Part shown: positions 1,781 to 62,404 of the stretch, piece by piece
Layout of the letters: every line of letters starts with the position of its first letter
How positions within the stretch are numbered: position 1 is the stretch's first letter
Sequence record: PP763253.1
Length of the DNA: 64,000 bases
From: Acinetobacter phage Ab1-TPeters
Strand: one strand, 5' to 3'
Program-made: the position numbers and the translations under genes
Notes under the pieces: generated by a model
What the model was told of the DNA's origin: nothing
Database searches by the model: none
Seen by the model: the letters and a program-made list of their open reading frames with translations, nothing else

Positions 1781-1800
1781 AACCTGTTAAGGTAAGGGCG
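1781..1800 (+). promoter_or_regulatory. conserved intergenic promoter-like motif (CCTGTT variant)
   Basis: AACCTGTTAAGGTAAGGGCG, 35 nt upstream of the 1835 gene. Confidence 0.35.
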
Positions 1801-1834
1801 TCTGTCTTTACTTTAACAAACTGAGATTTACATT

Positions 1835-2029
1835 ATGCTAAAAATTCTTGTATTAATCGTTGGGTTCGCTATTCTCTTGACTTTAGGTTTCCTTATCAAC
1901 AAACGTCAAAAAGCCTACGAAGCTAAATTGAGAGAAGAAGCTAAACAACGTCGCTTGAAGTCTTTACGTGATCGTCAATTAAGCAAACGTGAACTAGCTG
2001 CTATTGAATATAATCTGGAGTGTGACTGA
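1835..2029 (+). CDS. small membrane protein (one N-terminal TM helix, basic C-terminus)
   Basis: 64 aa. MLKILVLIVGFAILLTLGFLI is hydrophobic and is followed by a K/R-rich tail. The motif AACCTGTTAA lies upstream. Confidence 0.4.
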   Translation: MLKILVLIVGFAILLTLGFLINKRQKAYEAKLREEAKQRRLKSLRDRQLSKRELAAIEYNLECD

Positions 2030-2199
2030 TGATCACTCTTAAGTTCTTTCTTGAATCAATTGTAATAGCTGCTATAGCTTGCTTGTTCATGATCGCAATG
2101 ATAAAGGCTAGTGATCGTGAATTCAGACTCAAACTGGAACATGAATGTAGTTCAGGTGACTTATATTCATGTTCTGAATTAAATAAAATTCCGGAGTAA
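2029..2199 (+). CDS. small hydrophobic protein (56 aa, below the ORF-track cutoff)
   Basis: The ATG at 2029 overlaps the upstream TGA (TGATG). Translation is MITLKFFLESIVIAAIACLFMIAMIKASDREF..., ending at TAA 2197-2199. Confidence 0.3.
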   Translation: MITLKFFLESIVIAAIACLFMIAMIKASDREFRLKLEHECSSGDLYSCSELNKIPE

Positions 2200-2298
2200 T
2201 ATTGTGAGTAAACAAGTTGACAAACGAATTGCAGTTATTGCTGAGCGCTTAATGGTTATTAAGCTTCGTCGTAATTTAGAAAGAAAGAAGGTGAAGAA

Positions 2299-2553
2299 GT
2301 GAGATCTATGTATCATGGATGGAGAACTGATTTGATTCTACTTAGATTCAAAGAGCTTCACCCTAAACGTAAAGCACTCAAGATGAAGATAAAGGCACGT
2401 GGCTTACCTGAGTCTATGGAACTGTGCCGATTGACTATGTGTATTATTGAAATGAGATCTGTCCTCAAATATCGTGGAGTCACTAATATTAAAGAAGCAC
2501 TTCGAGATCCAGCTAATTTAGTCTGGAGTTGCCCAGTTAAGGAAGTTAGGTAA
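2299..2553 (+). CDS. hypothetical protein
   Basis: 84-aa ORF. Its stop overlaps the next start. Confidence 0.35.
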   Translation: MRSMYHGWRTDLILLRFKELHPKRKALKMKIKARGLPESMELCRLTMCIIEMRSVLKYRGVTNIKEALRDPANLVWSCPVKEVR

Positions 2554-2786
2554 TGCCTATTTCAGTTCGAATTTACAATAACGGTGACACAATTATCAAC
2601 GTTGTTCACCCAGACCACATTGCTGACCACATTGAATACAATTGTGATTTCAGATGGGGATGTGCACTGGTAGTTGATGGTGAGATCAAGAATAAAGGAT
2701 ATCTGGATGAGTCTCGAATTATGGAGATTTATAATTCAGCAAAACTACCTGACCCAACTAAATTCACACCAATACCTTACCGCTAG
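2553..2786 (+). CDS. hypothetical protein
   Basis: 77-aa ORF, followed by a strong hairpin plus T-run terminator. Confidence 0.4.
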   Translation: MPISVRIYNNGDTIINVVHPDHIADHIEYNCDFRWGCALVVDGEIKNKGYLDESRIMEIYNSAKLPDPTKFTPIPYR

Positions 2787-2794
2787 AATCTCTA

Positions 2795-2838
2795 AACTCC
2801 CCTCAAGAGCTGTTTACTTTTGAGGGGAGTTTTTATTT
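2795..2838 (+). terminator. rho-independent terminator
   Basis: AACTCCCCTCAA (2795-2806) pairs with TTGAGGGGAGTT (2820-2831) around a 13-nt loop. TTTATTT follows. Confidence 0.6.
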
Positions 2839-2858: not shown

Positions 2859-3149
2859 ATGAAGAAATACATTATGTCAGTGGAGGTGCCGTCAGTTCTT
2901 GACTCACCTTTAATTCAATTTAATACAATGCTAAATGACAAGACTCATCGTGAGGCTTTTAAGCTAGTTATCAAACAAGAAGCTCTTTCACCTAACTATC
3001 TGGATAAGTTGAATAATTCTGAGGTTCGTGAACGAGTTGCTAAGGTAATTGCCAAGTCAATAGATAAATTTGTTGAGTCAGGTTCAGTTCTTACTTCAAA
3101 GACTAATCGAACACCTTCAGTTAGAATTTCAGTAAAACCTGTTCCTTAA
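2859..3149 (+). CDS. hypothetical protein (start moved to the ATG after the terminator)
   Basis: The track ORF 2820..3149 begins inside the terminator hairpin. The ATG at 2859 is preceded by GAGGA. Confidence 0.4.
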   Translation: MKKYIMSVEVPSVLDSPLIQFNTMLNDKTHREAFKLVIKQEALSPNYLDKLNNSEVRERVAKVIAKSIDKFVESGSVLTSKTNRTPSVRISVKPVP

Positions 3150-3157
3150 CATTGGAT

Positions 3158-3187
3158 AAAGCCTGTTTAAAATGATAGGGGAAAGCC
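3158..3187 (+). promoter_or_regulatory. promoter-like motif followed by leader hairpin
   Basis: AAAGCCTGTTTAAAATGATA followed by the hairpin GGGGAAAGCCCC, then the RBS AGGAG and ATG at 3205. Confidence 0.4.
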
Positions 3188-3204
3188 CCGCAGGAGTATA
3201 AATC

Positions 3205-3510: not shown

Positions 3511-3541
3511 ACCAACCAATCGAAAACTCGAAATTGACTCC

Positions 3542-3557
3542 AAACGCTGTTTAAGTG
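3542..3557 (+). promoter_or_regulatory. promoter-like motif upstream of ligase
   Basis: AAACGCTGTTTAAGTG. Confidence 0.35.
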
Positions 3558-3625
3558 CCGGCAGGGGGCAGGATTTCAGAGAGTTTAATGAGTGGAGTTA
3601 ATAAGTAATTTATTAATTTAATTAA

Positions 3626-5474: not shown

Positions 5475-5852
5475 ATGAAATATATCCTTGGTTTACTCTT
5501 ACTAATTCCATTAAGCTCTTTGGCTAAACCAGCTAAACTAACTGCAGATCAGATTGATTGTTCAGCAGTTAGAGCTATGTCTTATGAAATAATGGTTAAG
5601 CGTCAGTATTCAACTGAAACTCCTGAATCTTTGTTTAATAAAGTTAATAAATCTGCATATCTGGATAACAAAGTTAAGTCGGCATTCGAAGTTATCATAT
5701 ACGATTCTTTTGACTATGACTTAGCTGAAACTAAACAAGGTAAAGATTACAGAGTCAAAGATTTCTCTGACTTCTGGTATAGAAAATGTAATTACGGCAG
5801 ATACTTTTACTCAGATCCAGTTAATAGAGTTATAAATTGGACAAAGTACTAA
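5475..5852 (+). CDS. secreted protein of unknown function
   Basis: Signal-peptide-like N-terminus MKYILGLLLLIPLSSLAKP. 125 aa. Confidence 0.45.
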   Translation: MKYILGLLLLIPLSSLAKPAKLTADQIDCSAVRAMSYEIMVKRQYSTETPESLFNKVNKSAYLDNKVKSAFEVIIYDSFDYDLAETKQGKDYRVKDFSDFWYRKCNYGRYFYSDPVNRVINWTKY

Positions 5853-5868
5853 AAACACTTTAAAAGTA

Positions 5869-5940
5869 GGAAAAACGCTGTTTTCCTGTTTCTTAAACAA
5901 TCTACAAGCCTGTTGAAATGTCGGGGCGGTTCGAACCGCC
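5869..5940 (+). promoter_or_regulatory. composite element: hairpin carrying the CTGTT motif, then promoter-like motif, then palindromic leader hairpin
   Basis: GGAAAAACGCTGTTTTCC (near-palindrome), then TGTTTCTTAAAC, then AAGCCTGTTGAAATGTCGGGG, then the perfect palindrome GGCGGTTCGAACCGCC. The order of parts matches the elements at 16376 and 19294. Confidence 0.45.
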
Positions 5941-5974
5941 TTATACTTTTATAATATACACTGGAGTTTATATC

Positions 5975-6595: not shown

Positions 6596-6601
6596 GATTA
6601 C

Positions 6602-6627: not shown

Positions 6628-6667
6628 GTACTTAGGATTTACGCTGGATAGGTCTCTGAAATAACCT

Positions 6668-6686
6668 GAAAAGCTGTTTTTAGTAG
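6668..6686 (+). promoter_or_regulatory. promoter-like motif upstream of kinase
   Basis: AAAAGCTGTTTTTAGTAGAGGTG. Confidence 0.35.
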
Positions 6687-6688
6687 AG

Positions 6689-7420
6689 GTGAATAAGATG
6701 TCGTTAAACAAATATTCAGTGGTTTTCTCAGGGACTCAAGGTTCAGGTAAAACCACTTTAACAAACGCTTGGTCAAAATTAGCTGGAATTCCATATAAAG
6801 CAGTTGAGACTAGAAAGTACGTGCCTGAGGGCATTTCTTCACATAAAGATATTATTAATCTTTCTGTAACTAACCCTGAAGTAGCTATTAAATTCCAATC
6901 TGATTTAATTCAGAACCGATTCAAACTCTTCAGTGAGTTAATGGAATCAGATCAAAAGTTCACTAGTGATCGTGCTGTCATTGACAGTTATGTTTATTAC
7001 TTGATGCATAACTCAATGTTTGCATGTGAAGAGAACAATCTAGCAAATAATGGATTTACTCAAGCAAGTGTTGGTCTATACGATCTAACTGTCTTAATAA
7101 ATCCTAAGCCTATACATGTTGAAGACGACAGCTTCAGAATTTCAAATTTATTCTACAACCGTGCCTATGCTGATTTACATAAGGCTACAACACTTAGAAT
7201 TTATGATGCGATTTTCGGTAATGCTAAGACATTGTCTAGCTACTCTCACGAAGGTGAGTTATACAATAATCTTCGCTCTTCAATAACTATGCATGTAGCT
7301 AAAACTCAATCTGGATATAAGCGTGGATTGATTATTCTTAATGAACCAGATGGTATGATTCCAACTGAAAAACGCTTAAACCTAATTTCTAACGCAGTAA
7401 ATGCATTTGACCAAATGTAA
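6689..7420 (+). CDS. P-loop deoxynucleoside monophosphate kinase
   Basis: Walker A VVFSGTQGSGKTTLTN. The size and N-terminal layout resemble phage dNMP kinases. It lies immediately upstream of the ThyA-family gene. Confidence 0.55.
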   Translation: MNKMSLNKYSVVFSGTQGSGKTTLTNAWSKLAGIPYKAVETRKYVPEGISSHKDIINLSVTNPEVAIKFQSDLIQNRFKLFSELMESDQKFTSDRAVIDSYVYYLMHNSMFACEENNLANNGFTQASVGLYDLTVLINPKPIHVEDDSFRISNLFYNRAYADLHKATTLRIYDAIFGNAKTLSSYSHEGELYNNLRSSITMHVAKTQSGYKRGLIILNEPDGMIPTEKRLNLISNAVNAFDQM

Positions 7421-7429
7421 GGAAATAAA

Positions 7430-10176: not shown

Positions 10177-10894
10177 GGCCATGCTGACCTCGATCTTCAA
10201 CTTTCCTGAGGAGTTTCGAGTAACTTCGAACCCTCGACCTAGAAAGGGGTTGTTCATTGGTAGTATCAATAAATGTGCACGTTATCTTCTAATTGCAATG
10301 AAAGTACCTAAGCAGTTAAATGGTATTAATGTAGTTTACTTAGAAAACGTTCAGATGTCTTCTAACGCTGATTATATCGTTAGCATGGGCAATGAGATTG
10401 AGAATGTCATGAGACGACATTTGAAATATCGTAAAGTGCCAATCCATGCAGATCAAATGCAGATAACTGAACTGGACGGTAAGATCAGAGGATTCCTTGA
10501 CTTCGGTGTTGAAGTTGAAGGAATTGGTATGATTATTATTGATGCCAAGGGAATGAGTGAATCTGTATTTGCTCGATTCACTGCTGCAGCAACTTTGCTG
10601 GATTTCAAAGAAGATTACTTCTATCAGGTTCTTCATTACATCAATTCAGTTAAGCTAGAATATGGCTATATTGTTGGTGTTAATAGATCAACTGGGCAAG
10701 TTGCGGTTAAGGAAGTTTCTCGAGCTAAATACCAAGACTTATATAATAAGTCAATGGAACGTAGCAAGAAAATAATTGTTACTCCTATTGAAGAGTATCA
10801 TACTCTTGAAGCTGCACCAGATAATGAATGTACTCAATGTGAATTCGTATCTGCGTGCCGCCCAGAATTTTACGCCAGTTTAGGTGTAAATTGA
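10163..10894 (+). CDS. PD-(D/E)XK (RecB/Cas4-like) nuclease with C-terminal Cys cluster
   Basis: Core motifs LDFGVEVEG and IIDAKG (D...E.K). The C-terminal CTQCEFVSAC is typical of the Fe-S or Zn cluster in Cas4/AddB-type nucleases. Confidence 0.5.
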   Translation: MNPREAMLTSIFNFPEEFRVTSNPRPRKGLFIGSINKCARYLLIAMKVPKQLNGINVVYLENVQMSSNADYIVSMGNEIENVMRRHLKYRKVPIHADQMQITELDGKIRGFLDFGVEVEGIGMIIIDAKGMSESVFARFTAAATLLDFKEDYFYQVLHYINSVKLEYGYIVGVNRSTGQVAVKEVSRAKYQDLYNKSMERSKKIIVTPIEEYHTLEAAPDNECTQCEFVSACRPEFYASLGVN

Positions 10895-10895
10895 G

Positions 10896-10915
10896 ATCAA
10901 CAGCTGTTTAATTTG
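10896..10915 (+). promoter_or_regulatory. promoter-like motif (palindromic AACAGCTGTT core) upstream of helicase
   Basis: ATCAACAGCTGTTTAATTTG. Confidence 0.35.
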
Positions 10916-10939
10916 AAAGCGTAATATTAAGGTAAAATT

Positions 10940-12626: not shown

Positions 12627-12992
12627 ATGATTCATCATAACTTAACGATTCTTGAGGGAGCGATTATTAAAGTAGAGCAGTGTTTTAGTAACACTGTCTC
12701 TCTTTCTCAAGAAAACAAATCAAATCCTATCTTACGTAAGATTAACCTTAATAGAAATGGATTTATTCTAACTCCTAAAACTACAGTGCATATTCAAGTT
12801 GGATTTGATTATGACTACTGTGCTTACCATTTAAATGATGTGAAGCCATCTAAAGCAGTTCGTGAAAGTAATTTAATTTTAAATAATTTTTACGTAGATG
12901 AAGGAAAGACGTTTGTAACTGTAACTAATATGAATTCTTCTAATTCTGTGAGACTAGAACCTGGTGAGGTTTTAGGCTCTATAATGATGTAA
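12627..12992 (+). CDS. hypothetical protein
   Basis: The track ORF is 12600..12992. The ATG at 12627 follows the upstream TAA by 1 nt. Confidence 0.4.
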   Translation: MIHHNLTILEGAIIKVEQCFSNTVSLSQENKSNPILRKINLNRNGFILTPKTTVHIQVGFDYDYCAYHLNDVKPSKAVRESNLILNNFYVDEGKTFVTVTNMNSSNSVRLEPGEVLGSIMM

Positions 12993-13020
12993 AAAGCTGT
13001 TTAATAAAAGAAGTGTAAGG
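12991..13020 (+). promoter_or_regulatory. promoter-like motif upstream of DNA polymerase
   Basis: AAAAAGCTGTTTAATAAAAGAAGTGTAAGG. Confidence 0.4.
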
Positions 13021-13028
13021 AAAACGTA

Positions 13029-16271: not shown

Positions 16272-16299
16272 AGGGCAGTTTGAAACTCGCAAATGAGTC

Positions 16300-16434
16300 T
16301 AAAAGCTGTTTCTTAGAAAGTGTTGAAGCCTGTTCTTTTTACAGGGCTTTGGCACTTTAGGTGCAGGATAAAGTAGGGGAAACAGCTGTTTTCCTGTCTC
16401 TTAAAAGTTGCTAAAACCTGTTTCGTTGTAGGGG
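16300..16434 (+). promoter_or_regulatory. tandem promoter-like elements in the 250-nt gap before the gene upstream of beta-prime
   Basis: AAAAGCTGTTTCTTAGAAAGTGTTGAAGCCTGTTC at 16300-16340. Then GGAAACAGCTGTTTTCC, a perfect 7-bp stem with AGCT loop, followed by TGTCTCTTAAAAGTTGCTAAAACCTGTTTCGTTGTAGGGG at 16376-16434. Confidence 0.45.
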
Positions 16435-16492
16435 TTATATTTTCTTTTATGATCTTGCTATTGTGTTCTTAATTTTTGTTCGGGTATTTGTA

Positions 16493-17074
16493 ATGTCTTC
16501 AGAAAGGCAATCTACTTTAGCTCTATCCTTAAATGAGTTAGAGTTTATTAATCCAGATGCATACTTAAATGCGTCTAATTCCACCTCCTTACGGGATTTC
16601 GATTATTGGCATTCGCGTGCAACTAACAACGCGAGCTATACCGAGAACCTTATTCAGGAGGAGTATCGTCGTCAGTATCCGAATTACGATCGCGTAACTC
16701 AGATGCATTCCTCGTCAACTGAGGTAACACCTGGAATGAACGGGGGTTCAGTCCAGAGTTTAATTTCAAGTGCAATACCTGAAATTGATCCTCAGAAAGA
16801 GTCAGAGTTTTTGATTCTAGTTCAATCTATCTTGAATAGGTTTGATTTCTTCGAAAATGAGCAGAAATTGAATCTTATTAAGGTATTTGGTTTTACTATC
16901 AATGCCGCTGGCTTATCGACACATCATCCAGACCTAGTTGAGCATGTCTCTCACTTTAGAGAAATTAAGTTTCCTAATATAGCTGATTTACATCGGTATG
17001 TTGGATCACGAACTAAAGCAGATGAAGCACGTAAACTTTTCAAAAACATTGCAGCAGAATATTTCTTAGGGTAA
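16493..17074 (+). CDS. hypothetical protein immediately upstream of RNAP beta-prime fragment
   Basis: The track ORF starts at the GTG at 16463; the ATG at 16493 is more plausible. Only 6 nt separate it from the beta-prime gene. No recognisable motif. Confidence 0.4.
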   Translation: MSSERQSTLALSLNELEFINPDAYLNASNSTSLRDFDYWHSRATNNASYTENLIQEEYRRQYPNYDRVTQMHSSSTEVTPGMNGGSVQSLISSAIPEIDPQKESEFLILVQSILNRFDFFENEQKLNLIKVFGFTINAAGLSTHHPDLVEHVSHFREIKFPNIADLHRYVGSRTKADEARKLFKNIAAEYFLG

Positions 17075-17080
17075 TTAATA

Positions 17081-18394
17081 ATGAATAACCGTATCAACCT
17101 AGTATTAAGCGTAGCTCGTGATTCAGACATCCGCAAGACTACCAATGGGGAAGTAACTAACATCGGTTTATATAATTTTAGATTCAAAGAGCCTGTTCCA
17201 TTTGAGGGTGGATTATTCTGTCAAAAGATTTTTGGGCCAATCAAAGACTACACTTGTGCATGCGGTGCACGTAAAGGTGGTAAGACAGTTGATGGTAAAG
17301 CACCATCTTGCGAGATCTGTGGGGTAGATCTAGTGAAGTCTGAGGTTCGTTCAAAACGTGAAGGTTATATTGATGCGAAAGTACATTATGTAAATGCATA
17401 TGCAATGCCACTCTTGGGTGCAATTCTTCAAATTGGTGAGGGTAATATTGAAGGAATATGCAATGGTACTATGTATTTCCGTTTTAAAGAATCAATGAAC
17501 GGTCTTCGTTCAATGTCTGGTAAGTTTTATTCAATTGAGCTATCAAAAGAAGACAAGACTTGGGGTACTTCTGCTGAGGAGCTCCTGGATGCAATTCAAG
17601 ATCTTGATTTGGATTCTGCTTACATTATGAAGAACTGCAATAGCCGAGACGTGAATCGCTATCACGATAAGGGTTACACTATTTCAGACTTCTTCTGCTC
17701 TCACGTGCGAGTGTCCCCTCCACGTACTCGTGATATGTCCGTAGTAAATAAGGATATATCATTTCACCCAGTAAACAACATCTACGCTCGTATCGTTCGA
17801 ATTGGAGCACGAGTAGCAACTTTAACCAACCAGATTCTGGAATATGATGGTGAGTTAAACTTAGAGCAATTAAAACAAGTGATTCGTGGTGAATCAATTG
17901 TGCTCCAAGCGCTAATTGATGCCTTGTTGTTTAAAGGAGCTACAGATTACCGTGGAAATGAGATTCCATCAGTTATCTCTTCACTTGGAGGTAAGGAAGG
18001 TATCGTCCGTGGTAACTTACTGGGTAAACGAGTTGACTTCTCTGGTCGATCTGTGATCATTTCCGGACCTGAACTTCCGTTAGATACAATCGGTGTTCCT
18101 TGGAAAATGATGTATGAGTTGCTTAAGCCGTTTATTCTGAATAAGCTAATTGAGCATCTTGAGGATCTTGATGGTATTTTAACCAGCCAGACTTTGAAGA
18201 AAGCTCGAACTATGTATGCTAACAAGAGCACAGAAGCAATGATGTTTATGCGAGAGTTAGCAGACAGACACTGGGCATTCTTGAATCGTGCACCGTCACT
18301 TCACAGATACTCAGTAATGGCGTTCAAAATACAGCTTCACAGTGGTAAAGCAATTAAGCTGCCACCTATGCTTTGTTCACCATTCAACGCGGAT
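17081..18394 (+). CDS. multisubunit RNA polymerase beta-prime N-terminal segment, exon 1
   Basis: Colinear with bacterial RpoC residues ~1-460. The Zn ribbon is YTCACGARKGGK...CEICGV. Other matches are NLLGKRVDFSGRSVI, LNRAPSLHR and PMLCSPFNAD. The reading frame stops right after NAD, inside the NADFDGDQM motif. Confidence 0.8.
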
Positions 18395-56989: not shown

Positions 56990-57134
56990 TGTCGACTAAT
57001 ACCCCTGTACACCTTTTACGGCTAGACCACCCCTGCAGGCGCGGGAATAAGAACAGGTCGAAAAACAACCGATCAGTGCTCGATTCGTTGGAAAATCTCT
57101 GGAATTAGGCGATTTTGAAACTCGGAAATGCGTT

Positions 57135-57153
57135 CAAACGCTGTTTTATGTGG
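57135..57153 (+). promoter_or_regulatory. promoter-like motif in divergent region
   Basis: CAAACGCTGTTTTATGTGG. Confidence 0.3.
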
Positions 57154-57236
57154 CGGTCAGCCCAGGGGAGTGCAAAAGTAATTAACTGAGTCACTAACTG
57201 ACGTAATTGAATAACTGAATAATTTAAATAAAATAA

Positions 57237-57268: not shown

Positions 57269-57403
57269 TAAATAATTGAAACTCCAGAATGACGTCAAGA
57301 GCTGTATAAATTGTTATTTATACACGGAGTGAGGGGGTAAAAATAGAATTACCTTACTAGTGAATGAATAGTAATTTAATAGTAAGTTGGAGCTAATCAT
57401 TAA

Positions 57404-58081
57404 ATGAATTTTAATTTTCAGGAATCACAGATTTCACATAGCAATGGAATCATCTACTACGGTAAGCATAAAATCTGGAACGTGAGAGATGCGTCAGTAA
57501 AGAATTTTACTAAACCTAAAAATCTAACTAATTCTTGGGAATTGAATAAAAATAAGAATATATACCTGAGATTGGATGAGATATCCTACCTATTAATGAA
57601 AGCTAGAGGTAGTTCAAATTTGTATTCAAAAGTAAATAATTCAAGTAATTATTTCACTTTCTCCTTATTTCCGCTACATAAACTTCCACTTCCAATTGAA
57701 TCCTATCCTGAGTTCATTGCATCTTTAGAAAAATCTAATTTCTATGGACTAAAGAAATTAGTTATTAAACCTATTACAGAGAAACTTATTAAAGAATTTG
57801 ACTATGTAATAACTGACATAAAACATAATCTGGAATCAGTATTCACTATTGAAGATATCTATTCTCAAACTGAAGTAGATAATTTGATTGAATCAACAAC
57901 TATCCCAGAGAGTTCAAAAGTTTTAGTTTTAATGAAACTCAGCAATAGTGTCTCATATTATGTAGCTGAAAAGCTTAAATCAAAATATCCTAATCTCAAA
58001 GTACTTCCTTGCACTATATTTCAAGTAGATCAGGATCACTGTCTATTTGACTATAAGCTACTAGAATCCTGGGTCGTGTAG
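57404..58081 (+). CDS. hypothetical protein
   Basis: 225-aa ORF, N/K-rich. Confidence 0.4.
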   Translation: MNFNFQESQISHSNGIIYYGKHKIWNVRDASVKNFTKPKNLTNSWELNKNKNIYLRLDEISYLLMKARGSSNLYSKVNNSSNYFTFSLFPLHKLPLPIESYPEFIASLEKSNFYGLKKLVIKPITEKLIKEFDYVITDIKHNLESVFTIEDIYSQTEVDNLIESTTIPESSKVLVLMKLSNSVSYYVAEKLKSKYPNLKVLPCTIFQVDQDHCLFDYKLLESWVV

Positions 58082-58084
58082 ATA

Positions 58085-58116
58085 GCTCCAAAAGCTGTTT
58101 AAACGTGTAAGATAAT
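58085..58116 (+). promoter_or_regulatory. promoter-like motif
   Basis: GCTCCAAAAGCTGTTTAAACGTGTAAGATAAT, 14 nt before the ATG at 58130. Confidence 0.4.
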
Positions 58117-58129
58117 TGAGGATACTTCA

Positions 58130-58465
58130 ATGGAAAAATCTAAAGTATGTGCATTCCTTATGGAACTTAGCGGAAGCTATGCTAAACTAGGTAATAATAT
58201 CAAGTCAGGTTCATTTGCCAGAGCTGCAAGTACAATTAAGGATTCAGCTTTACTCGAAATTAATGAAAGTGCTGAACTAGGTAAACTTCGTGGTATAGGT
58301 CCATCTACCGTAAAGGAAATCAATGAATTTCTTGAAAAAGGTACGAGTGAACGACTTGAAAAACTCAAGGAAGAACTTCAACAAATTGACGAAGTAGGAA
58401 ATCCTGGAAGTGCTTTAGATAACATCAGAAATCTAATCAAAAAGGCTAAATCGTCCAATGATTGA
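58130..58465 (+). CDS. stand-alone Pol beta 8-kDa (HhH, dRP-lyase-like) domain protein
   Basis: SFARAASTIKDSALLEINESAELGKLRGIGPSTVKEINEFLEKG parallels the N-terminal domain of the Pol X at 19960 (SYRKAADVIRN...LRGVGAAIDSEIREFLECG). Confidence 0.45.
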   Translation: MEKSKVCAFLMELSGSYAKLGNNIKSGSFARAASTIKDSALLEINESAELGKLRGIGPSTVKEINEFLEKGTSERLEKLKEELQQIDEVGNPGSALDNIRNLIKKAKSSND

Positions 58466-58976
58466 CATCTTCACTATTCCAGTTCTAGATCCAGTGAGAT
58501 CTACTATTGATGCCAGTTACTCAGAGATCAAATCAGAATCTACTTCACTGCTGTTGAAGTGGCGTTCTAATATGAATAAGTACGTAACTGAACTAACCAG
58601 AATGGATAATTCTCGGTTAGTTCTAGCATTCAATGGTAAATCTCTATTTGGTGTCTGGGATCTGGTTGAAAATCAGGGATATGAATTCTTGATTCCAGTT
58701 GATGTAGTTACTAGTATTTTTAATAACTACACCAGAATCATGATTCCTATCTCTAAATTCCAGTCTGGAGCTAAATACTTCTTTGACGTTGAACACAATC
58801 CAGTATTAGCTGATCTAAAGAATTATTCTAGAACTATTCTGAAAGAAATGCTATTATCACCAGAGTTCCGCGGATCTTCGAATGAAGAATTAGCTATTCG
58901 TGCTATTCAGGCTGCACAAGCTCATAATCAAAATTTTAATGATTATGCTAATCTTTACCATCAGTCTCAACAGTAG
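58458..58976 (+). CDS. hypothetical protein
   Basis: 172-aa ORF; ATGA overlap. Confidence 0.4.
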   Translation: MIDIFTIPVLDPVRSTIDASYSEIKSESTSLLLKWRSNMNKYVTELTRMDNSRLVLAFNGKSLFGVWDLVENQGYEFLIPVDVVTSIFNNYTRIMIPISKFQSGAKYFFDVEHNPVLADLKNYSRTILKEMLLSPEFRGSSNEELAIRAIQAAQAHNQNFNDYANLYHQSQQ

Positions 58977-58988
58977 AGAATTAATAAT

Positions 58989-60209
58989 ATGTCCGTGTAT
59001 ATTGAACAAGATATTCCCGAAGGCGTTTCTAAAGAAAATATTTTATTAGATACAGATAAAGTAATTATTTTCGTTCGAGATGAACTTACCCCAGAAGGTA
59101 AGAATGTAATTGTTAAGAAAAATAAATTCTTAAACTCAGAAGAGACTGGTTTAGTTCAAACTCGCATTACTACTCCAAACTCAAGTTACGAAGAAAAATA
59201 TCCTAGCGTATTGAAGCTAGCAGATAAGCAAGCTGAAGAACAGTTGTGGTTCAAGAATGAAATGGTTGTTGAAAATGACAGTATGGAACTTGAATTTGTT
59301 CTTACTCCCCAGCAGCTTCATGCTGTAAAGACTGTACTTCATTTATTCCTTCAGTATGAATTACACGTGGGTGAGGAATTCTGGAACGGTATCTTTACTA
59401 AGCTATTCCCTCGTTGGGAATCAAAAGCAGGTGCTTCTACTATGGCGTTCATTGAACTTATGGTTCATGCACGTTCATATAATGAAATTAACGTAGTCTT
59501 AGGACTAAACAAAGACGAGTACTATACTGCTTATGTTAATGACCCTATCCTCAATGAGCGCATGGAATGGATTGACAATATCTTACGAGGTAAGAACAAA
59601 CTCCTTTCAGCTCTATTCTTCTCATTAACTGAGACTGCTCTATTATTTGCAAGCTTTGCTATTCTTAAGTCGTTCCAAGCTAATGGTTATAACTTATTGA
59701 AAGTTATCGTTCAAATCGCTAACCAATCAGCTCTGGACGAAGATTTACATGGTCAATATGCAACTGAACACTTCAATATTTACTTCACAGAAGCTAACAA
59801 AAAGCTCTGGGAACATGAGGAAATGTTCAAGCAGTTACTCGAAGGATGTAACTATGTGTATGAACATGAACTCCGTATTATTAACCTAGCTATTCCAGAT
59901 GGTCAATTAAACGGATATAGCAATGAAGACTACGCTAAGTTCGTAGCTTACCGTATTGGAGTGTTCTTAACTCGACTTCAAGTACCTATGGAACTAATTC
60001 CAGATACTTTCCGTGTTGAATACACAGAATCAACTGTGGCTACTCTATTCAATAAGAATACTTATGGTTATCAGATGCCTGACTTCTTTACTAAGGGTCA
60101 AAACCGTGAGTATGAATCATCATGGACAGCCTCATCTTTTGCTCAGGGTTATCTAGATGCGAAAAAGGCTGAGAAAGAAGAATTAGCACAATTTAGTTTG
60201 GAAGCATAA
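58989..60209 (+). CDS. nrdB: ribonucleotide reductase class I small (beta) subunit
   Basis: Di-iron ligand motifs AFIELMVHARSY (ExxH 1, compare AFSETIHSRSY) and SALDEDLHGQY (ExxH 2, compare ISRDEGLH). Confidence 0.7.
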   Translation: MSVYIEQDIPEGVSKENILLDTDKVIIFVRDELTPEGKNVIVKKNKFLNSEETGLVQTRITTPNSSYEEKYPSVLKLADKQAEEQLWFKNEMVVENDSMELEFVLTPQQLHAVKTVLHLFLQYELHVGEEFWNGIFTKLFPRWESKAGASTMAFIELMVHARSYNEINVVLGLNKDEYYTAYVNDPILNERMEWIDNILRGKNKLLSALFFSLTETALLFASFAILKSFQANGYNLLKVIVQIANQSALDEDLHGQYATEHFNIYFTEANKKLWEHEEMFKQLLEGCNYVYEHELRIINLAIPDGQLNGYSNEDYAKFVAYRIGVFLTRLQVPMELIPDTFRVEYTESTVATLFNKNTYGYQMPDFFTKGQNREYESSWTASSFAQGYLDAKKAEKEELAQFSLEA

Positions 60210-60210
60210 G

Positions 60211-62004
60211 ATGGCTGTTTTAGATTATCAAGAAGTAATGAATAAATACGGAACTAAGAATTATTCTGAACTACGTAAGAAAATGCAATTAGAAGGTGAA
60301 GCTCCATCTTGGTTTACTACTGGGGGAACTCAGTTATTCTTTGAGAAATATTCATGGAATGGTGAGACAGTTAAATCTCGACTTCAGTCAATTGCTATTG
60401 CCTTAGCTAATAAAGCACCACTATCTTACCCAGATTGGTGGAATGACTTTGAGAGTACCAGAGGTAAAACCTGGAGTGAAGTATTCTTTGACGTATTATG
60501 GCAAGGTTATATTTCATGTTCAACTCCACTATTAGCTAATGGTGGTTTACCTGAACGTGGAACTACAGTAAGCTGTGCAGGTTCATATGTAGGTGACGAT
60601 TTATACAGTCGCTATGATATCGTAACTGAAAGCGCTATTCTTACCAAACACTCTCACGGAACTTCATGTTCAATCGATGATTGGGCTGAACGAGGTCGTC
60701 CATTAGATCGAGGTGGTTTTGCTGGTGGAGTTATGCCAGTTATCCGTGATCTAATTAACTGTATGGATGAAGTGGTTCAAGGTTCTCGTCGAGGTTCATT
60801 ATCTTATGCTATTGATATTATGCATAAGGAATGGTATGACGTACTTCAATTCCTATATCAGAATCCTGAGAGTAATAACCCAGCCTGGATTGTCAGAGAC
60901 AGCTTTATTCAGGCACTTGAAGAGCATGAGCATTCTGAAGAACTTCTACGTTTAGCTAAAGCTCTTGAAGTTAAAATGATGCGAGGTAAAGGTTATTTCA
61001 CTAAATTAGATGAAATGAACCGTCACTTAGCTCAAGCGTTCAAAGATGCTGGTCTTAGTGCTAAAGCTTCAAACTTGTGTCAAGAAGTTAATCTAGGTGC
61101 AGATGAAGACCACACATTCTCTTGTGTAATTTTGAACTGGAACTTAGATTTATATGATGAATCACTTAAGAAATACCCTCACATAGGCTTTATTGCTCAT
61201 GTGATGCAAGACTGTAACGTAAGCTGCTACATTGAAACACTTAAACAACGTGTAGCTAACAAGCGTGACGGTAAAGCACTTAAGAAGATTCTCCGATTTA
61301 CTGAGAAATTCCGTGCAGTTGGTACTGGTGTTTTAGGATTCCATACTTTACTACAAAAGAAAATGATTCCAGTAGGAAGCATGGAAAGCTTCCAGCTTAA
61401 CTACAAAATCTTTAGCTATTTAGATAAAGACACTAAAGCAGCTAACGTGTGGTTAGGTGAGGTACTTGGTTGCCCTGAAGGCACTAAGCACTTAGGAATA
61501 AGAACAGCTACCTGCTTGATGATGCCTCCAACTAAATCTACAGCTGAGTTCATGGCTGGAGCTTCAGAAGGCATTGGTCTTGATGTAGCAATGGTTTACA
61601 CTAAGCAGACTGCTGGTGGTGAAATTCTTCGTGTAAATAAAGTCTTACTTCCTATTATGAAGGAACGTGGAGTATTTACTGAAGAGACATTGATGGATAT
61701 TTCCTTGCATAAAGGATCTGTTCAACATGTAACATGGTTAAGTGATCATGAGAAGGCAGTGTTCCGTACAGCTTTCGAAATTGACATGATTGACCATCTT
61801 AAGTTATGTGCTCAACGTCAACCTTTCATTGACCAAGGTCAGTCAATTAATCTTTACTTCACTAGTAATGATACATATGAGTACATTATGAAAGTACACA
61901 GATTTGCTCTACTAAATCCAGAGATTCTGTGTCTGTATTACATCTACTCTATGCGTGGTTCTGGTGATATTCAGCGAGTAACAGAATGCCAAGTTTGTCA
62001 ATAA
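60211..62004 (+). CDS. nrdA: ribonucleotide reductase class I large (alpha) subunit, no ATP-cone
   Basis: Active-site motif NLCQEVNLGADEDHTFSCVILNWNLD (NxCxEixL...CNLxSiNL). C-terminal Cys pair CQVC. 597 aa, directly after the beta subunit gene. Confidence 0.65.
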   Translation: MAVLDYQEVMNKYGTKNYSELRKKMQLEGEAPSWFTTGGTQLFFEKYSWNGETVKSRLQSIAIALANKAPLSYPDWWNDFESTRGKTWSEVFFDVLWQGYISCSTPLLANGGLPERGTTVSCAGSYVGDDLYSRYDIVTESAILTKHSHGTSCSIDDWAERGRPLDRGGFAGGVMPVIRDLINCMDEVVQGSRRGSLSYAIDIMHKEWYDVLQFLYQNPESNNPAWIVRDSFIQALEEHEHSEELLRLAKALEVKMMRGKGYFTKLDEMNRHLAQAFKDAGLSAKASNLCQEVNLGADEDHTFSCVILNWNLDLYDESLKKYPHIGFIAHVMQDCNVSCYIETLKQRVANKRDGKALKKILRFTEKFRAVGTGVLGFHTLLQKKMIPVGSMESFQLNYKIFSYLDKDTKAANVWLGEVLGCPEGTKHLGIRTATCLMMPPTKSTAEFMAGASEGIGLDVAMVYTKQTAGGEILRVNKVLLPIMKERGVFTEETLMDISLHKGSVQHVTWLSDHEKAVFRTAFEIDMIDHLKLCAQRQPFIDQGQSINLYFTSNDTYEYIMKVHRFALLNPEILCLYYIYSMRGSGDIQRVTECQVCQ

Positions 62005-62327
62005 TTGAAATCCTTTTATTGTTAATTATGTCACACTTCTTATGTGACTTTGCTTTACAAAATGACTTCGTAGCCAAGTTCAAGAGTCGCCTAGTAGATG
62101 GTAAGTATAACCCTATGTGGTTCTGGGTTCTTTTGGCTCATTGCTCAATTCACGCTATTCCAGTCCTGATTTTAACTGGAAGTGGGTTCTTAGCTTTAGC
62201 TATGCTTATTTCTCATTTTATTATTGATTTTAATAAATGCGAAGGTAAACTAACTTTTAACGGAGATCAAATAAGTCACTTATTAGTTATATTTGCTATT
62301 TGGTCACTGTTTGTAATTTACTTTTAG
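61986..62327 (+). CDS. small multi-TM membrane protein
   Basis: Three hydrophobic helices; overlaps the nrdA end by 19 nt. Confidence 0.35.
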   Translation: MPSLSIIEILLLLIMSHFLCDFALQNDFVAKFKSRLVDGKYNPMWFWVLLAHCSIHAIPVLILTGSGFLALAMLISHFIIDFNKCEGKLTFNGDQISHLLVIFAIWSLFVIYF

Positions 62328-62331
62328 ATTT

Positions 62332-62353
62332 AGGGAGCTAAGGCTCCCTTTTT
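62332..62353 (+). terminator. rho-independent terminator (GGGAGC/GCTCCC family)
   Basis: GGGAGC (62333-38) pairs with GCTCCC (62343-48) around a 4-nt loop; TTTTT follows. Confidence 0.6.
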
Positions 62354-62370
62354 CACGGACGCTGCTATCT

Positions 62371-62404
62371 GAGCTCAAAAGCTGTTTAAGTGTATAAGCT
62401 CAGG
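62371..62404 (+). promoter_or_regulatory. promoter-like motif
   Basis: GAGCTCAAAAGCTGTTTAAGTGTATAAGCTCAGG, 11 nt before the ATG at 62415. Confidence 0.4.

What the first reader, a model, noticed from the sequence alone, without database searches (positions are those of the whole stretch)
1781..62404. Recurrent ~20-26-nt intergenic motif (GAGCTC)AAAAGCTGTTTAAGTGTAAG / AAACCTGTTAAGATGTCGGGG upstream of plus-strand genes
At least 15 plus-strand intergenic sites share a CTGTT(T)AAG core. Their start positions are 1781, 3158, 3542, 5874, 5905, 6668, 10896, 12991, 16300, 16383, 16416, 19296, 19316, 20711, 25035, 57137, 58090 and 62378. The flanks are highly similar.

The best-conserved copies (20711, 58090, 62378, 12991) end 11-17 nt before a start codon. 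Several others are followed by a GC-rich hairpin at the predicted 5' end of the transcript (GGGGAAAGCCCC at 3176, GGCGGTTCGAACCGCC at 5925, GGGGGATTTTCCCC at 19337) and then an AGGAG-type RBS.

Some copies sit in tandem, with a GCTGTT copy followed ~25 nt later by a CCTGTT copy (5869-5926, 16376-16434, 19294-19336). The motif does not resemble sigma-70 -35/-10 hexamers.

This looks like a phage-specific promoter family, possibly read by the phage's own multisubunit RNAP or a phage sigma/activator. A palindromic version (AACAGCTGTT at 10901, GGAAACAGCTGTTTTCC at 16376) could double as an operator.
Basis: seen in the sequence. Interest (0 to 1): 0.6.

Follow-up and report, generated by a model that had tools for sequence, protein, structure and literature searches.

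The report
Conserved two-class phage promoter motif family
A recurring ~35-50-base signal in front of the early and DNA-replication genes of this unclassified phage is real, is shared with distant relatives infecting other bacteria, and is most likely the promoter set read by the phage's own bacterial-type RNA polymerase.

Summary
The motif is real. AAVSCTGTT occurs 18 times on the + strand and 2 on the − strand, against 4.45±2.1 expected. Thirteen of the 18 lie in the 3.8% of the window that is intergenic. The literal core CTGTT(T)AAG is not enriched.

There are about 17-19 sites in two classes:
- **Class A:** AAACTCnAAATGAnnTCAAAAGCTGTTTAAGTGT, 24-40 nt before replication and nucleotide-metabolism genes.
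- **Class B:** sCTGTyTCTTAAA, then CCTGTTnnnnTGTnGGGG exactly 24 nt downstream, usually followed by a 5' hairpin. It precedes small genes and the RNA polymerase β' operon.

None of the sites falls in the minus-strand structural block.

The phage is probably an Acinetobacter phage of the RP13/EP_H11/YerA41 group, which has hypermodified thymidine and its own β/β' RNA polymerase. Relatives carry the same core:
- E. coli phage EP_H11 has 24 AAGGCTGTT sites, all sense-oriented.
- Ralstonia phage RP13 has ACCTTGTAAGA, whose orientation flips with gene direction.
- Five metagenomic relatives carry it too.

The motif appears in divergent regions and is absent from convergent ones.

Best reading: a bipartite promoter family for the phage's own transcription machinery. 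No start-site data exist, and the protein that reads it is unknown. I found no published description. Interest is moderate.

The parts
62355..62398 (+). Class A site: acggacgctgctatctgagctcaaaagCTGTTtaagtgtataag. CTGTT is 33 nt before the ATG of helicase gene 62415. An intrinsic terminator at about 62333-62355 precedes it.
20688..20731 (+). Class A site with a CTTTT core, 27 nt before ATG 20742. A GGAGG ribosome-binding site lies between the motif and the ATG.
58068..58111 (+). Class A site, 35 nt before ATG 58130 (helix-hairpin-helix protein).
12970..13021 (+). Class A site, 32 nt before the ATG of DNA polymerase A (13029). The GTGTAAG box is displaced by an 8-nt insertion.
25011..25054 (+). 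Class A site with a CTTTT core, 40 nt before ATG 25078 (NUDIX-like protein).
6647..6690 (+). Class A site, 24 nt before ATG 6698 (thymidylate-kinase-like protein). It follows the terminator at 6602-6627.
10877..10920 (+). Class A site containing the palindrome AACAGCTGTT, 36 nt before helicase ATG 10940.
3520..3570 (+). Class A site with the full upstream box GAAAACTCGAAATTGA and a G-rich downstream stretch, 79 nt before the NAD-ligase gene (3626). It is the best window hit of the EP_H11-trained matrix (23.9 bits).
57114..57165 (+). Class A site in the divergent region 56990-57403. No co-directional gene lies upstream.
57275..57318 (+). Weaker class A-like site with core CTGTA, also in the divergent region, 102 nt before ATG 57404.
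16279..16350 (+). Class A site at 16306 whose CTGTT also serves as the -24 half-site of a class B-like core at 16330 (CCTGTTctttttacaGGG). It follows the terminator at 16247-16264. The arrangement is conserved in relative L013.
16358..16438 (+). Long class B site: AAAGTAGG, then the palindrome GGAAACAGCTGTTTTCC, then CCTGTCTCTTAAA (half-site at 16394), then AAAACCTGTTtcgtTGTAGGGG (core at 16418). It precedes the operon encoding a 193-aa protein and RNAP β'.
5850..5945 (+). Long class B site: AAAGTAGG, then GGAAAAACGCTGTTTTCC, then CCTGTTTCTTAAA (5886), then AAGCCTGTTgaaaTGTCGGGG (5910), then the hairpin GGGGCGGTTCGAACCGCC(TT). The gene most likely starts at ATG 5975 (RBS GGAG), not at ATG 5918, which lies inside the motif.
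19270..19358 (+). Long class B site: AAAAAGTAGC, then AAAAGCTGTCTCTTAAA (19299), then AAAACCTGTTaagaTGTCGGGG (19323), then the hairpin GGGGGGATTTTCCCCTC. The gene most likely starts at ATG 19373 (RBS AGGAG).
3133..3190 (+). Class B site: AAAACCTGTTCCTTAAC (3139), then AAAGCCTGTTtaaaaTGATAGGGG (3163), then the hairpin GGGGAAAGCCCC. It lies 42 nt before ATG 3205.
1754..1820 (+). Class B site: TCCTGTTTGTTAAAC (1760), then AAACCTGTTaaggTAAGGGCG (1784). The core is also the 5' arm of a 15-bp hairpin. It lies 51 nt before ATG 1835.
21550..21593 (+). Class A-like site inside ORF 21008-21871 (gagAAACTCaaaaatgacCTCAACAGCTTTTTAAttaga), followed by an in-frame ATG at 21590. It may be an internal promoter or a chance match.
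2783..2832 (+). Doubtful class A-like match (CTCAAGAGCTGTTTAC) in the loop of a 16-bp terminator-like hairpin.
17081..18928 (+). Candidate reader of the motif: the N-terminal half of a bacterial-type RNA polymerase β' subunit. Exon 1 is 17081-18394, a group I intron covers about 18385-18750, and exon 2 is about 18755-18928. The gene is expressed from the class B site at 16418.
16493..17074 (+). 193-aa protein of unknown fold, encoded directly upstream of β'N in the window and the six relatives compared. It may be an RNAP-associated factor; this is inference only.

Best explanation
These sites are the early and middle promoters of the phage, read by phage-encoded transcription machinery. The most likely reader is the phage's own bacterial-type split β/β' RNA polymerase together with an unidentified specificity factor.

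**Shared core.** Both classes share AAA-S-CTGTT-(T)AAG-n-TGT. I infer it lies at about -17 to -2. Transcription would then start at a purine about 13-15 nt downstream of the C of CTGTT: the G-run of class B, or the A/G after GTGTA in class A.

**Class-specific upstream boxes.** Each class adds its own box one promoter-spacer upstream.
- Class A has AAACTCnAAATGA, with CTC 20 nt before the C of CTGTT. It drives replication and nucleotide-metabolism genes.
- Class B has a second box, sCTGTyTCTTAAA, exactly 24 nt upstream. Its transcripts usually begin with a G-run and a stable hairpin. It drives small early genes and the RNAP β' operon.

**Late genes.** The structural genes on the minus strand use something else.

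**Shown here.** The motif is real, sense-oriented and intergenic. It has a two-class bipartite anatomy with fixed spacing. It is conserved across relatives on different hosts, and its orientation tracks gene direction.

**Inferred.** That it is a promoter, where transcription starts, which polymerase reads it, how the classes map to early and middle times, and any role of hypermodified thymidines in the T-rich core.
For: - **Enrichment, strand and location:**
- **Position relative to other signals:** terminator, then motif, then RBS and ATG at 6596-6698, 16239-16330 and 62328-62415.
- **Coverage of gaps:** 15 of 20 + strand gaps of 15 nt or more carry the motif, against 0 of 8 − strand gaps.
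- **Divergent and convergent regions:** sites occur in the divergent region 56990-57403, where no upstream co-directional gene exists. None occurs in the convergent region 27321-27362. EP_H11 shows the same pattern.
- **Exact spacing:** 24 nt in six of six class B sites. In class A, the C and T of the upstream CTC box are kept in 90% or more of the 13 aligned sites.
- **EP_H11 (E. coli phage, G+C 45%):** 24 sites with consensus CCGCTCTTTT-N-TCGAAAGGCTGTTAAAGTGT, all on +, all inside + gene blocks, none in the − structural block. Six intergenic class B sites read AAAGCCCGTTCTTTTGGGTGGGGCGG plus a hairpin, one of them before the β'N operon; the pattern has a seventh match inside a gene that lacks these flanks.
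- **RP13 (Ralstonia phage):** CGACGCTAT-N9-GAGACCTTGTAAGA. All 4 − strand copies lie in or beside the − gene block, and 9 of 11 + strand copies carry the motif flanks and lie in the + gene block.
- **Metagenomic relatives L002, L003, L005, L006, L007 and L013:** the same core. In L013 the boxes are kept while the spacers diverge.
- **Cross-phage matrix:** it recovers the window sites.
- **Phage RNAP:** the β' gene is in the window and sits under a class B site.
- **YerA41:** RNAP subunits are virion-associated and expressed early (PMC7354516).
- **σ70 sites:** not enriched.
Against: - No transcription start mapping exists for this phage or any relative. The YerA41 literature only lists σ70 predictions made with BPROM (PMC9023294).
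- No specificity factor was found. No sigma70-type Pfam domain appears in any of the 40 window proteins searched against Pfam.
- Only part of the RNAP is in the window. β'C and β are absent from it.
- Some cores are embedded in hairpins. In EP_H11 two class A motifs are followed by a hairpin plus T-run before the gene. A simple promoter model does not predict this.
- Some relatives' cores look like an extended -10 element. L007 has TGTTATAAT and EP_H11 has TGTTAAAGT, so a σ70-family reader, host or phage, cannot be excluded.
- Strand specificity and closeness to start codons would also fit an RNA-level signal.
Confidence: 0.7

Rival explanations
1. The sites are promoters read by the host RNA polymerase. 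Either they act as unusual extended -10-type σ70 promoters, or a phage-encoded activator or appropriator protein binds the conserved box, as T4 MotA/AsiA does.
For: - The architecture is bipartite with σ-like spacing: an upstream box 20-24 nt before the core.
- Some cores resemble TGnTAnnnT. Examples are L007 CTGTTATAAT, EP_H11 CTGTTAAAGT and window 19323 CTGTTAAGAT.
- One σ70-like hit, TTAACA-16-TAAAAT at 3146-3173, overlaps the class B site at 3163.
Against: - σ70-like sites are not enriched: 54 against 65±7 expected. Only one overlaps a motif site within 1-20 kb.
- Reading the sequences, only about 5 of 15 window cores have A at position 2 and T at position 6 of a -10 hexamer in any register.
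- The E. coli phage's class B core, CCCGTTCTTTTGGG, has no -10-like hexamer.
- The core is kept across hosts from Ralstonia to Acinetobacter to E. coli and across 28-46% G+C, and it travels with a phage RNAP gene.
- A MotA-type box at -30 is impossible for the best sites. CTGTT lies 24-40 nt from the ATG, with the RBS in between.
Confidence: 0.14
2. The motif acts in the RNA. It could be a processing or cleavage site, a translational operator near the RBS, or a determinant of mRNA ends. Promoters would then lie elsewhere.
For: - The motif is strictly on the sense strand and close to start codons.
- Hairpins lie immediately downstream.
- In several cases the core can pair with nearby sequence.
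Against: - The distance to the start codon varies from 24 to 263 nt. This is unlike a translational operator.
- The upstream box sits at a fixed 20-24 nt while the spacer sequence varies, which fits recognition on double-stranded DNA.
- The motif follows strong intrinsic terminators and is the only conserved element between terminator and gene.
- It occurs at the head of gene blocks in divergent regions.
- No Rfam family matches these sites.
Confidence: 0.07
3. The motif is a sequence-specific pause or termination signal at the 3' end of the upstream gene, comparable to the T7 RNA polymerase class II signal ATCTGTT.
For: - The shared CTGTT resembles ATCTGTT (from my own knowledge of T7 class II terminators).
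- The motif lies between genes.
- Some copies overlap or precede a hairpin plus T-run.
Against: - The positions corresponding to AT are A/G then G/C here.
- No single-subunit RNAP was found in the window, nor among the seven unannotated large EP_H11 ORFs I searched; the rest of that genome's large ORFs were not checked against Pfam.
- The motif is present in divergent regions with nothing upstream to terminate. It is absent from convergent regions at the ends of gene blocks.
- It lies downstream of ordinary intrinsic terminators, not in their place.
Confidence: 0.03
4. The CTGTT boxes are binding sites for a phage DNA-binding regulator, a repressor or activator. One box would give class A, two boxes 24 nt apart class B, and the palindromes would act as operators. 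The true core promoter would be a short unrecognised element.
For: - There are tandem direct repeats at exactly 24 nt.
- Palindromic versions exist at 10899-10908, 16378-16394 and 5869-5886.
Against: - The conserved block is asymmetric and continuous over about 35 nt, up to the inferred start.
- The palindrome is missing at the orthologous site in L013, although the boxes are kept.
- No other conserved element that could be the promoter is seen in these short gaps.
Confidence: 0.06

Closest known systems
Promoters of jumbo-phage multisubunit RNAPs. These include the AR9 non-virion RNAP late promoter (A-11ACA-N6-T A/G+1, read on the template strand and uracil-dependent) and the AT-rich -10-centred early motifs read by phiKZ/AR9 virion RNAPs (PMC7598289, PMC5449584).
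   Same: - A phage-encoded β/β'-type RNAP with a phage-specific, non-σ70 motif just upstream of the start.
- The motif can be found by bioinformatics upstream of early operons.
- The genomic DNA carries a non-canonical pyrimidine. This is inferred from gene content and from the relatives RP13, YerA41 and Carin-5 (PMC12686479).
   Different: - The sequence is unrelated: the sense strand carries CTGTT, not AACA.
- The motif is much longer and bipartite, with an upstream box at -20 or -24.
- There are two related classes sharing one core.
- The RNAP is far closer to bacterial β' (30-33% identity) than the phiKZ or AR9 enzymes are described to be.
- Only one β'N gene per genome was detected.
T7-group single-subunit RNAP promoters: a 23-bp conserved block from -17 to +6 that initiates at GGG (from my own knowledge).
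   Same: - A long, highly conserved, strictly oriented block ending in a G-run (class B: TGTCGGGG).
- It is often followed by a 5' stem-loop and is repeated before many genes.
   Different: - No single-subunit RNAP gene was found in the window, nor among the seven unannotated large EP_H11 ORFs searched.
- Conservation extends to about -40 with a variable spacer, which is unlike T7 promoters.
Bacterial σ70-family promoters, including extended -10 (TGnTATAAT) promoters, and T4 middle promoters, which combine a MotA box at -30 with a σ70 -10 element (PMC2988021).
   Same: - Two boxes about 20-24 nt apart.
- A shared downstream box with class-specific upstream boxes recalls exchange or appropriation of σ region 4.
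- Some relatives' cores contain TGnTAnnnT.
   Different: - The hexamers do not match TTGACA/TATAAT, and σ70-like sites are not enriched.
- Most window cores lack the key A-11 and T-7 bases.
- The box cannot sit at -30, given the RBS positions.
Undescribed motifs in the RP13/EP_H11/IME392-like phages: EP_H11 CCGCTCTTTT-N-TCGAAAGGCTGTTAAAGTGT and RP13 CGACGCTAT-N9-GAGACCTTGTAAGA.
   Same: - The same core, the same sense orientation, the same kinds of gene downstream (replication genes, RNAP operon) and the same two-class split.
- This is the family the window's motif belongs to.
   Different: - The upstream boxes differ in sequence between phages.
- The core shifts by one or two bases: GCTGTTTAAG, GGCTGTTAAAG and ACCTTGTAAGA.
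- I found no paper describing these motifs.

Membership tests
Promoter set of RP13/EP_H11-like phages (undescribed; defined here by comparison) | Core AAA-S-C(T/C)(G/T)(G/T)T-(T)AA(A)G in sense orientation in the gaps before early, replication and RNAP genes | tested here: met
   Window sites. EP_H11 has 24 sites on + and 0 on −. RP13 orientation follows gene direction. Relatives L002-L007 and L013.
Promoter set of RP13/EP_H11-like phages (undescribed; defined here by comparison) | Two classes: a single core with its own upstream box, and a CC(T/C)GTT core followed by a G-run and hairpin, with a second box 24 nt upstream | tested here: met
   In the window the spacing is 24 nt in six of six sites. 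EP_H11 class B has ACGATTTTTG 24 nt before CCCGTTCTTTTG, counted on the sequences. RP13 and L007 have class B-like AAGACTGTTAT..GG.
Promoter set of RP13/EP_H11-like phages (undescribed; defined here by comparison) | The genome encodes the group's bacterial-type split RNAP and its PolA | tested here: met
   β'N is 38-39% identical to EP_H11, IME392 and RP13. PolA is 31-33% identical to the same phages. Synteny with relatives.
Functional promoter (any kind) | Primary transcript 5' ends map a fixed short distance downstream | not testable with these tools
   No transcriptome or start-site data exist for this phage or its relatives. The YerA41 papers give temporal RNA-seq and BPROM predictions only (PMC7354516, PMC9023294).
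σ70-type host promoter | TTGACA, 16-18 nt, TATAAT (at least 9 of 12 positions matching), enriched at the sites | tested here: not met
   54 sites found against 65±7.2 expected in 1-20 kb. Only the hit at 3146-3173 overlaps a motif site.
σ70-type host promoter | A -10 hexamer with A at position 2 and T at position 6 (TAnnnT), optionally preceded by TGn | tested here: not met
   Reading the sequences, about 5 of 15 window cores fit in any register. Some relatives do fit (L007 TGTTATAAT), so the resemblance is partial only.
AR9-type non-virion RNAP promoter | A-11ACA-N6-T(A/G)+1 on the non-template strand, i.e. 3'-UUGU on the template strand (PMC7598289) | tested here: not met
   The consensus of both classes carries CTGTT on the sense strand and has no AACA at a fixed position.
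AR9-type non-virion RNAP promoter | Recognition depends on a non-canonical pyrimidine in the DNA | not testable with these tools
   Only gene content points to modified T: a ThyA-like gene at 7430-8479, a kinase-like gene at 6689-7420, dCTP deaminase at 26169-26759 and sugar-nucleotide enzymes at 22214-23432. Modification in relatives is documented in PMC12686479.
T7-type single-subunit RNAP promoter | A single-subunit RNAP gene in the genome | tested here: not met
   None was found among the 10 EP_H11 ORFs searched (seven of them over 400 aa), or among the window proteins searched against PHROGs or Pfam. The window is not a complete genome.
T4 MotA-dependent middle promoter | An activator box centred near -30, 11-13 bp upstream of a σ70 -10 element | tested here: not met
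   CTGTT lies 24-40 nt before the ATG, with the RBS in between. The box must therefore sit near -10 to -15, and no -10 hexamer follows it.
T7 class II pause/termination signal | ATCTGTT at the 3' end of a transcription unit | tested here: not met
   The AT positions are not conserved. The motif is present in divergent regions and absent from convergent ones.
N4-type hairpin promoter | A conserved 5-7-bp DNA hairpin with a 3-nt loop upstream of the start | tested here: not met
   AGCT-N4-AGCT (GCGT/ACGC at 57141) can pair in some class A sites but is missing in 3547, 16306, 12997, 6674 and 10904.

The most novel reading that the evidence does not exclude
The motifs would be the promoter code of a previously uncharacterised lineage of phage RNA polymerases. 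These enzymes are bacterial-like, split β/β', and probably injected with the DNA, and they work on thymidine-hypermodified DNA.

- A non-sigma specificity subunit would read the T-rich CTGTT core through its modified bases. This would be analogous to the uracil-specific recognition by AR9, and it would restrict transcription to phage DNA.
Probability: 0.25. Interest if true: 0.75.

Novelty: new variant of a known kind. Interest (0 to 1): 0.55.

Why it matters
Phage-specific promoters for phage-encoded polymerases are a known kind of element. For the RP13/YerA41/EP_H11 group I found no published promoter. These phages have hypermodified thymidine, are hard to sequence, and carry their own bacterial-type RNAP. 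The YerA41 papers list only σ70 predictions made with BPROM.

The motif set found here gives four things:
- **A testable promoter map.** It has two classes that divide small early genes plus the RNAP operon from replication genes.
- **Comparative data.** The cores and upstream boxes of eight or more phages on different hosts can guide biochemistry on how a bacterial-like viral RNAP finds promoters and whether modified T is part of the signal.
- **Better annotation.** Gene callers start ORFs at ATGs inside the class B core, at 5918 and 19331.
- **Orthogonal transcription parts.** These could be useful if the reading factor is identified.

If the sites turn out to be host-RNAP promoters with an activator box, the result would be ordinary.

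Tried and rejected
- **Literal core.** CTGTTWAAG and CTGTTTAAGTGT with up to 2 mismatches are not enriched, so I redefined the core.
- **My own Gibbs sampler.** Run on the -80..+3 regions of all genes, it drifted to weak A-rich sites and was not informative. I replaced it with word enrichment.
- **Close relatives of the phage.**
  - Megablast of 25 kb against phage records found nothing.
  - A single-protein scan of viral contigs found nothing.
  - An exact motif scan of viral contigs gave 0 hits.
  - A scan of metagenome contigs gave 9 single hits with no tblastx similarity to the window, so these are chance matches.
- **Searching for a sigma factor.**
  - Pfam on 40 window proteins found no sigma70 domains.
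  - The "sigma factor" named in the first YerA41 paper does not appear in the right-hand 50 kb of the final GenBank record, the reverse-strand structural block, which I read.
- **The conserved 193-aa protein upstream of β'N as a possible specificity factor.**
  - It has no Pfam or PHROG hit.
  - A profile search of PDB sequences found nothing credible.
  - The word-based homologue search found only 2 proteins.
  - The single-sequence AlphaFold model is unusable, with pLDDT 37.6.
- **An N4-like hairpin reading of GAGCT..AGCTC.** It is not conserved.
- **Known RNA families.** Rfam at gathering thresholds matched none of the motif sites.
- **A late-gene motif.** None is evident in the minus-strand block of the window or EP_H11.
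- **YerA41.** It shows only two class B-like copies, CCGTTGTTATTGTTGGGAGCGG plus a hairpin, and no class A motif in the 50 kb I read.
- **Literature.** One search with loose settings returned only generic papers.

Full report
**What the window is**

The 64-kb window is part of a phage genome with about 36% G+C.
- Plus-strand genes occupy 1-27320 and 57404-64000.
- A minus-strand block at 27363-56989 encodes a myovirus virion: sheath, baseplate, protease and tailspike.
- The plus-strand genes are replication and nucleotide-metabolism functions. They include NAD ligase, a ThyA-like enzyme, primase, two helicases, a 1069-aa PolA, PolX, the RNR subunits, a ParM-like actin and dCTP deaminase.
- They also include the N-terminal half of a bacterial-type RNA polymerase β' subunit at 17081-18397.

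There is no nucleotide-level relative among 50,697 phage records. PolA and β' are 31-39% identical to E. coli phages EP_H11 and IME392 and to Ralstonia phage RP13. More distant matches include Rhizobium RHph phages, Vibrio phages and YerA41. That group is described as having thymidine-hypermodified DNA (PMC12686479). In YerA41, RNAP subunits are virion-associated and expressed early (PMC7354516).

The tailspike is 61-63% identical to those of Acinetobacter baumannii podophages. The host is therefore probably Acinetobacter.

The stated core does not hold up. CTGTTWAAG occurs 4 times against 2.4 expected, and the 12-mer with 2 mismatches is at chance level.

The shared part is AA[ACG][GC]CTGTT:
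- 20 matches against 4.45±2.09 expected, with 0 of 100 shuffles reaching 20.
- 18 are on + and 2 on −. 13 of the 18 lie in the 3.8% of the window that is intergenic.
- A hypothesis-free comparison of word counts, intergenic against all sequence, puts pieces of AAAAGCTGTTTAA at the top for k=6, 7 and 8. AGCTGTTT has 8 of 9 copies intergenic, p=1e-10.
- A 12-nt matrix gives 31 + hits and 11 − hits at 10 bits or more, against about 10 expected per strand. 19 of the 31 + hits are intergenic. All five intergenic − hits coincide with + strand sites, probably because the core is partly palindromic.
- Nothing scoring 13 bits or more with the 28-nt matrix lies in the structural block on either strand.
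- 15 of 20 plus-strand gaps of 15 nt or more carry a site. None of the 8 minus-strand gaps does.

**Anatomy**

Alignment separates two related classes.

*Class A* has 10 good sites and 3 weaker ones. Its consensus is TGAAaCTCnAAAATGAnnTCAAAAGCTGTTTAAnT, often followed by GTGTAAG. G, C, T, T and T of the core and several upstream positions are invariant. The C and T of the CTC box 20 nt upstream are kept in at least 90% of sites. CTGTT lies 24-40 nt before the ATG of tmk-like, helicase, PolA, NUDIX, HhH and helicase genes, with the RBS in between. It lies further upstream for the ligase gene and in the divergent region.

*Class B* has 6 sites. It reads sCTGTyTCTTAAA, then, exactly 24 nt after the first C, CCTGTT-N4-TGT-n-GGGG. 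A stable hairpin follows at 3178, 5923 and 19335. The three long copies (5850-5945, 16358-16438, 19270-19358) share about 70 nt, including AAAGTAGG. Class B precedes small genes of unknown function and the operon of a 193-aa protein plus β'.

At 16306/16330 a class A core doubles as the -24 box of a class B-like core.

Automatic ORF calls begin at ATGs inside the class B core, GATGTC at 5918 and 19331. The real starts are most likely ATG 5975 and ATG 19373, each behind a GGAG-type RBS.

**Comparative evidence**

Contigs encoding β'N homologues with 38-48% identity were fetched, along with annotated genomes. Each has its own recurrent intergenic motif with the same core.

- **EP_H11** (G+C 45%). 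AAGGCTGTT occurs 24 times, all on the + strand, all inside plus-strand gene blocks and none in the minus-strand structural block. The consensus is atAAnaCCGCTCTTTTtAnGncTCgAAAGGCTGTTAAAgTGT. The CTC of the upstream box sits at the same -20 offset as in the window. Six intergenic class B sites read AAAGCCCGTTCTTTTGGGTGGGGCGG plus a hairpin and have an AT-rich upstream region, in which ACGATTTTTG lies 24 nt before CCCGTTCTTTTG; the pattern's seventh match lies inside a gene and lacks these flanks. One sits before the operon of the homologue of the 193-aa protein and β'N.
- **RP13.** The motif is CGACGCTAT-N9-GAGACCTTGTAAGA before PolA, the helicases and many other genes, and AAGACTGTTATTTTGGCGGCG plus a hairpin before the β' region. 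All four minus-orientation copies lie in or beside the minus-strand gene block. Nine of the eleven plus-orientation copies carry the motif flanks and lie in the plus-strand gene block; the other two lack them, one of these sitting in the minus block. The divergent region carries outward-facing copies on both sides.
- **Metagenomic relatives**:
  - L007: AACCTTGTAAGAG and AAAGACTGTTATAATGTCTGG.
  - L006 (46% G+C): CCGAACGTAA-N8-AAAGCCTTTTAAAAGnGGCGGGG plus a hairpin.
  - L003: AAAGCCTGTTAGGGG.
  - L002: AAATCTTGTTAGGG.
  - L005 (28% G+C): AAAAGCATGTTAAGTTAAGGG.
- **L013.** This closer relative (64% identity in the 193-aa protein) keeps the order terminator, then GCTGTTTCTTAGA-N-CCTGTT, then CTGTTTCTTAAAA-N-CCTGTTTnnnTGTrGG between PolA and the RNAP operon. 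The spacers diverge and the window's palindrome is absent.
- **YerA41.** It shows only two class B-like copies in the 50 kb I read.

**Interpretation**

Three tests separate a promoter from a terminator or another intergenic signal.
- **Divergent and convergent regions.** Sites occur in divergent regions, where nothing co-directional lies upstream: window 57141 and 57302, EP_H11 97488 and RP13 12035/12085/12141. They are missing from convergent regions, which hold only bidirectional hairpins.
- **Order of signals.** Where ordinary intrinsic terminators are present, the order is terminator, motif, RBS.
- **Orientation.** The motif's orientation tracks gene direction.

The motif persists across host genera and across G+C contents from 28 to 46%, always together with the phage β' gene. 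This points to phage-encoded recognition rather than host σ70. σ70-type sites are not enriched (54 against 65±7), and most window cores lack the -10 key bases.

The RBS positions force the start to lie within about 8-20 nt after CTGTT. The class B G-run followed by a hairpin suggests initiation about 13-15 nt after the C of CTGTT. That places the core at about -17 to -2 and the class-specific boxes at about -40 to -28.

RNAP genes are early in YerA41 (PMC7354516), and class B sits before the RNAP operon and small genes. Class B is therefore plausibly early and class A early-middle. The polymerase assignment, the start site and the timing are all inferences.

**What does not fit neatly**

- Several cores are part of hairpins: window 1785-1818, 19323-19363 and 2794-2832, and EP_H11 32907 and 11304.
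- In EP_H11 two class A motifs precede a hairpin plus T-run.
- No sigma-type domain was found in the window.
- The conserved 193-aa protein upstream of β'N is uncharacterised. It has no Pfam or PDB match, and the AlphaFold model has pLDDT 37.6.
- β'C and β are not in the window. In EP_H11, β'C is at 26582-28096.
- Some relatives' cores resemble an extended -10 element, so a σ70-family reader is not excluded.

**Comparison with known systems and novelty**

The motif works like the phage-specific promoters of jumbo-phage multisubunit RNAPs and of T7-type RNAPs, but it meets the sequence definition of none of them. It has no AR9 AACA-N6-TW, no phiKZ-type AT-rich -10 block, no σ70 hexamers and no MotA geometry. 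No single-subunit RNAP gene was found.

The full-text searches found no description of this motif. The YerA41 literature lists only σ70 predictions made with BPROM. I rate it a new variant of a known kind, of moderate interest.

Noticed in passing
window 18385-18750 (+): A group I intron (Rfam RF00028, 66 bits, E=1.6e-14) interrupts the RNAP β' gene inside the catalytic NADFDGD motif. Exon 1 ends ...SPFNAD, followed by a stop. Exon 2 (about 18755-18928) reads FDGDQMAIHL...SHEQIVGLLELTLGE and aligns to the C-terminal 55-58 residues (from about 428-433, or 465 in EP_H11) of four relatives' β'N (44-63% identity). The 438-aa ORF is therefore not the whole protein. L005's β'N also stops right after NAD, so it may carry an intron at the same place.
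   Followed up: partly
window 6689-9230, 21868-23432, 26169-26759: The gene set suggests hypermodified thymidine, as in RP13, YerA41 and Carin-5. It includes a ThyA-like enzyme (possibly a dUMP hydroxymethylase), a thymidylate-kinase-like protein, an HD-type dNTP triphosphohydrolase, a cytidylyltransferase-like protein, a PMM/HAD phosphatase and dCTP deaminase. The T-rich promoter core would then consist largely of modified bases.
   Followed up: partly
window 28025-30067 (-): Residues 105-680 of the tailspike are 61-63% identical to the depolymerase tailspikes of Acinetobacter baumannii podophages AS11, PE21 and Fri1. This suggests an Acinetobacter host and exchange of a receptor-binding module between unrelated phages.
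   Followed up: partly
window 5918 and 19331 (ATG inside GATGTCGGGG): Both the mechanical ORF list and the Logan gene calls start genes at an ATG that belongs to the class B core. ATG 5975 and ATG 19373 have proper GGAG-type RBSs and are in frame.
   Followed up: yes
window 27321-27362; EP_H11 59625-59677: A perfect bidirectional hairpin terminator (AATAAAATAGGGAGCCTAGGCTCCCTATTTTATT) sits where the plus-strand and minus-strand gene blocks converge. EP_H11 has the same arrangement.
   Followed up: partly
window 1785-1818, 2794-2832, 19323-19363; EP_H11 11304, 32907, 9565: In some places the promoter-like core forms an arm or the loop of a strong hairpin, or is followed by a hairpin plus T-run before the gene. 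These could be attenuators, 5' stabilisers or overlapping terminators. I cannot say which.
   Followed up: partly
L002 6226-6535, 8951-9404, 11444-11611: The relative L002 has a complex element of about 100 nt, repeated in three gaps around its RNAP genes: CTCTAAGTGTTTTCCCTTAGAG..CTCTAAGGGTTTTCAC..AGAG..TTCCGTTCTGA. It contains inverted repeats and is much larger than the window's motif.
   Followed up: no
window 16493-17074 (+): A protein of about 195 aa with no Pfam, PHROG or PDB match is encoded directly upstream of β'N in the window, L002, L003, L005, L006, L007 and EP_H11 (19-35% identity). It is a candidate RNAP-associated factor.
   Followed up: partly
window 23449-24390 (+): A ParM/Alp7A-like actin gene is present here. 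Equivalent genes occur in relatives L006 and L008, and YerA41 carries an annotated ParM-like gene.
   Followed up: no
window 21550-21593 (+): A good class A-like site lies inside ORF 21008-21871 and is followed by an in-frame ATG at 21590 with no obvious RBS. It may be an internal promoter for a shorter product, or a chance match.
   Followed up: no
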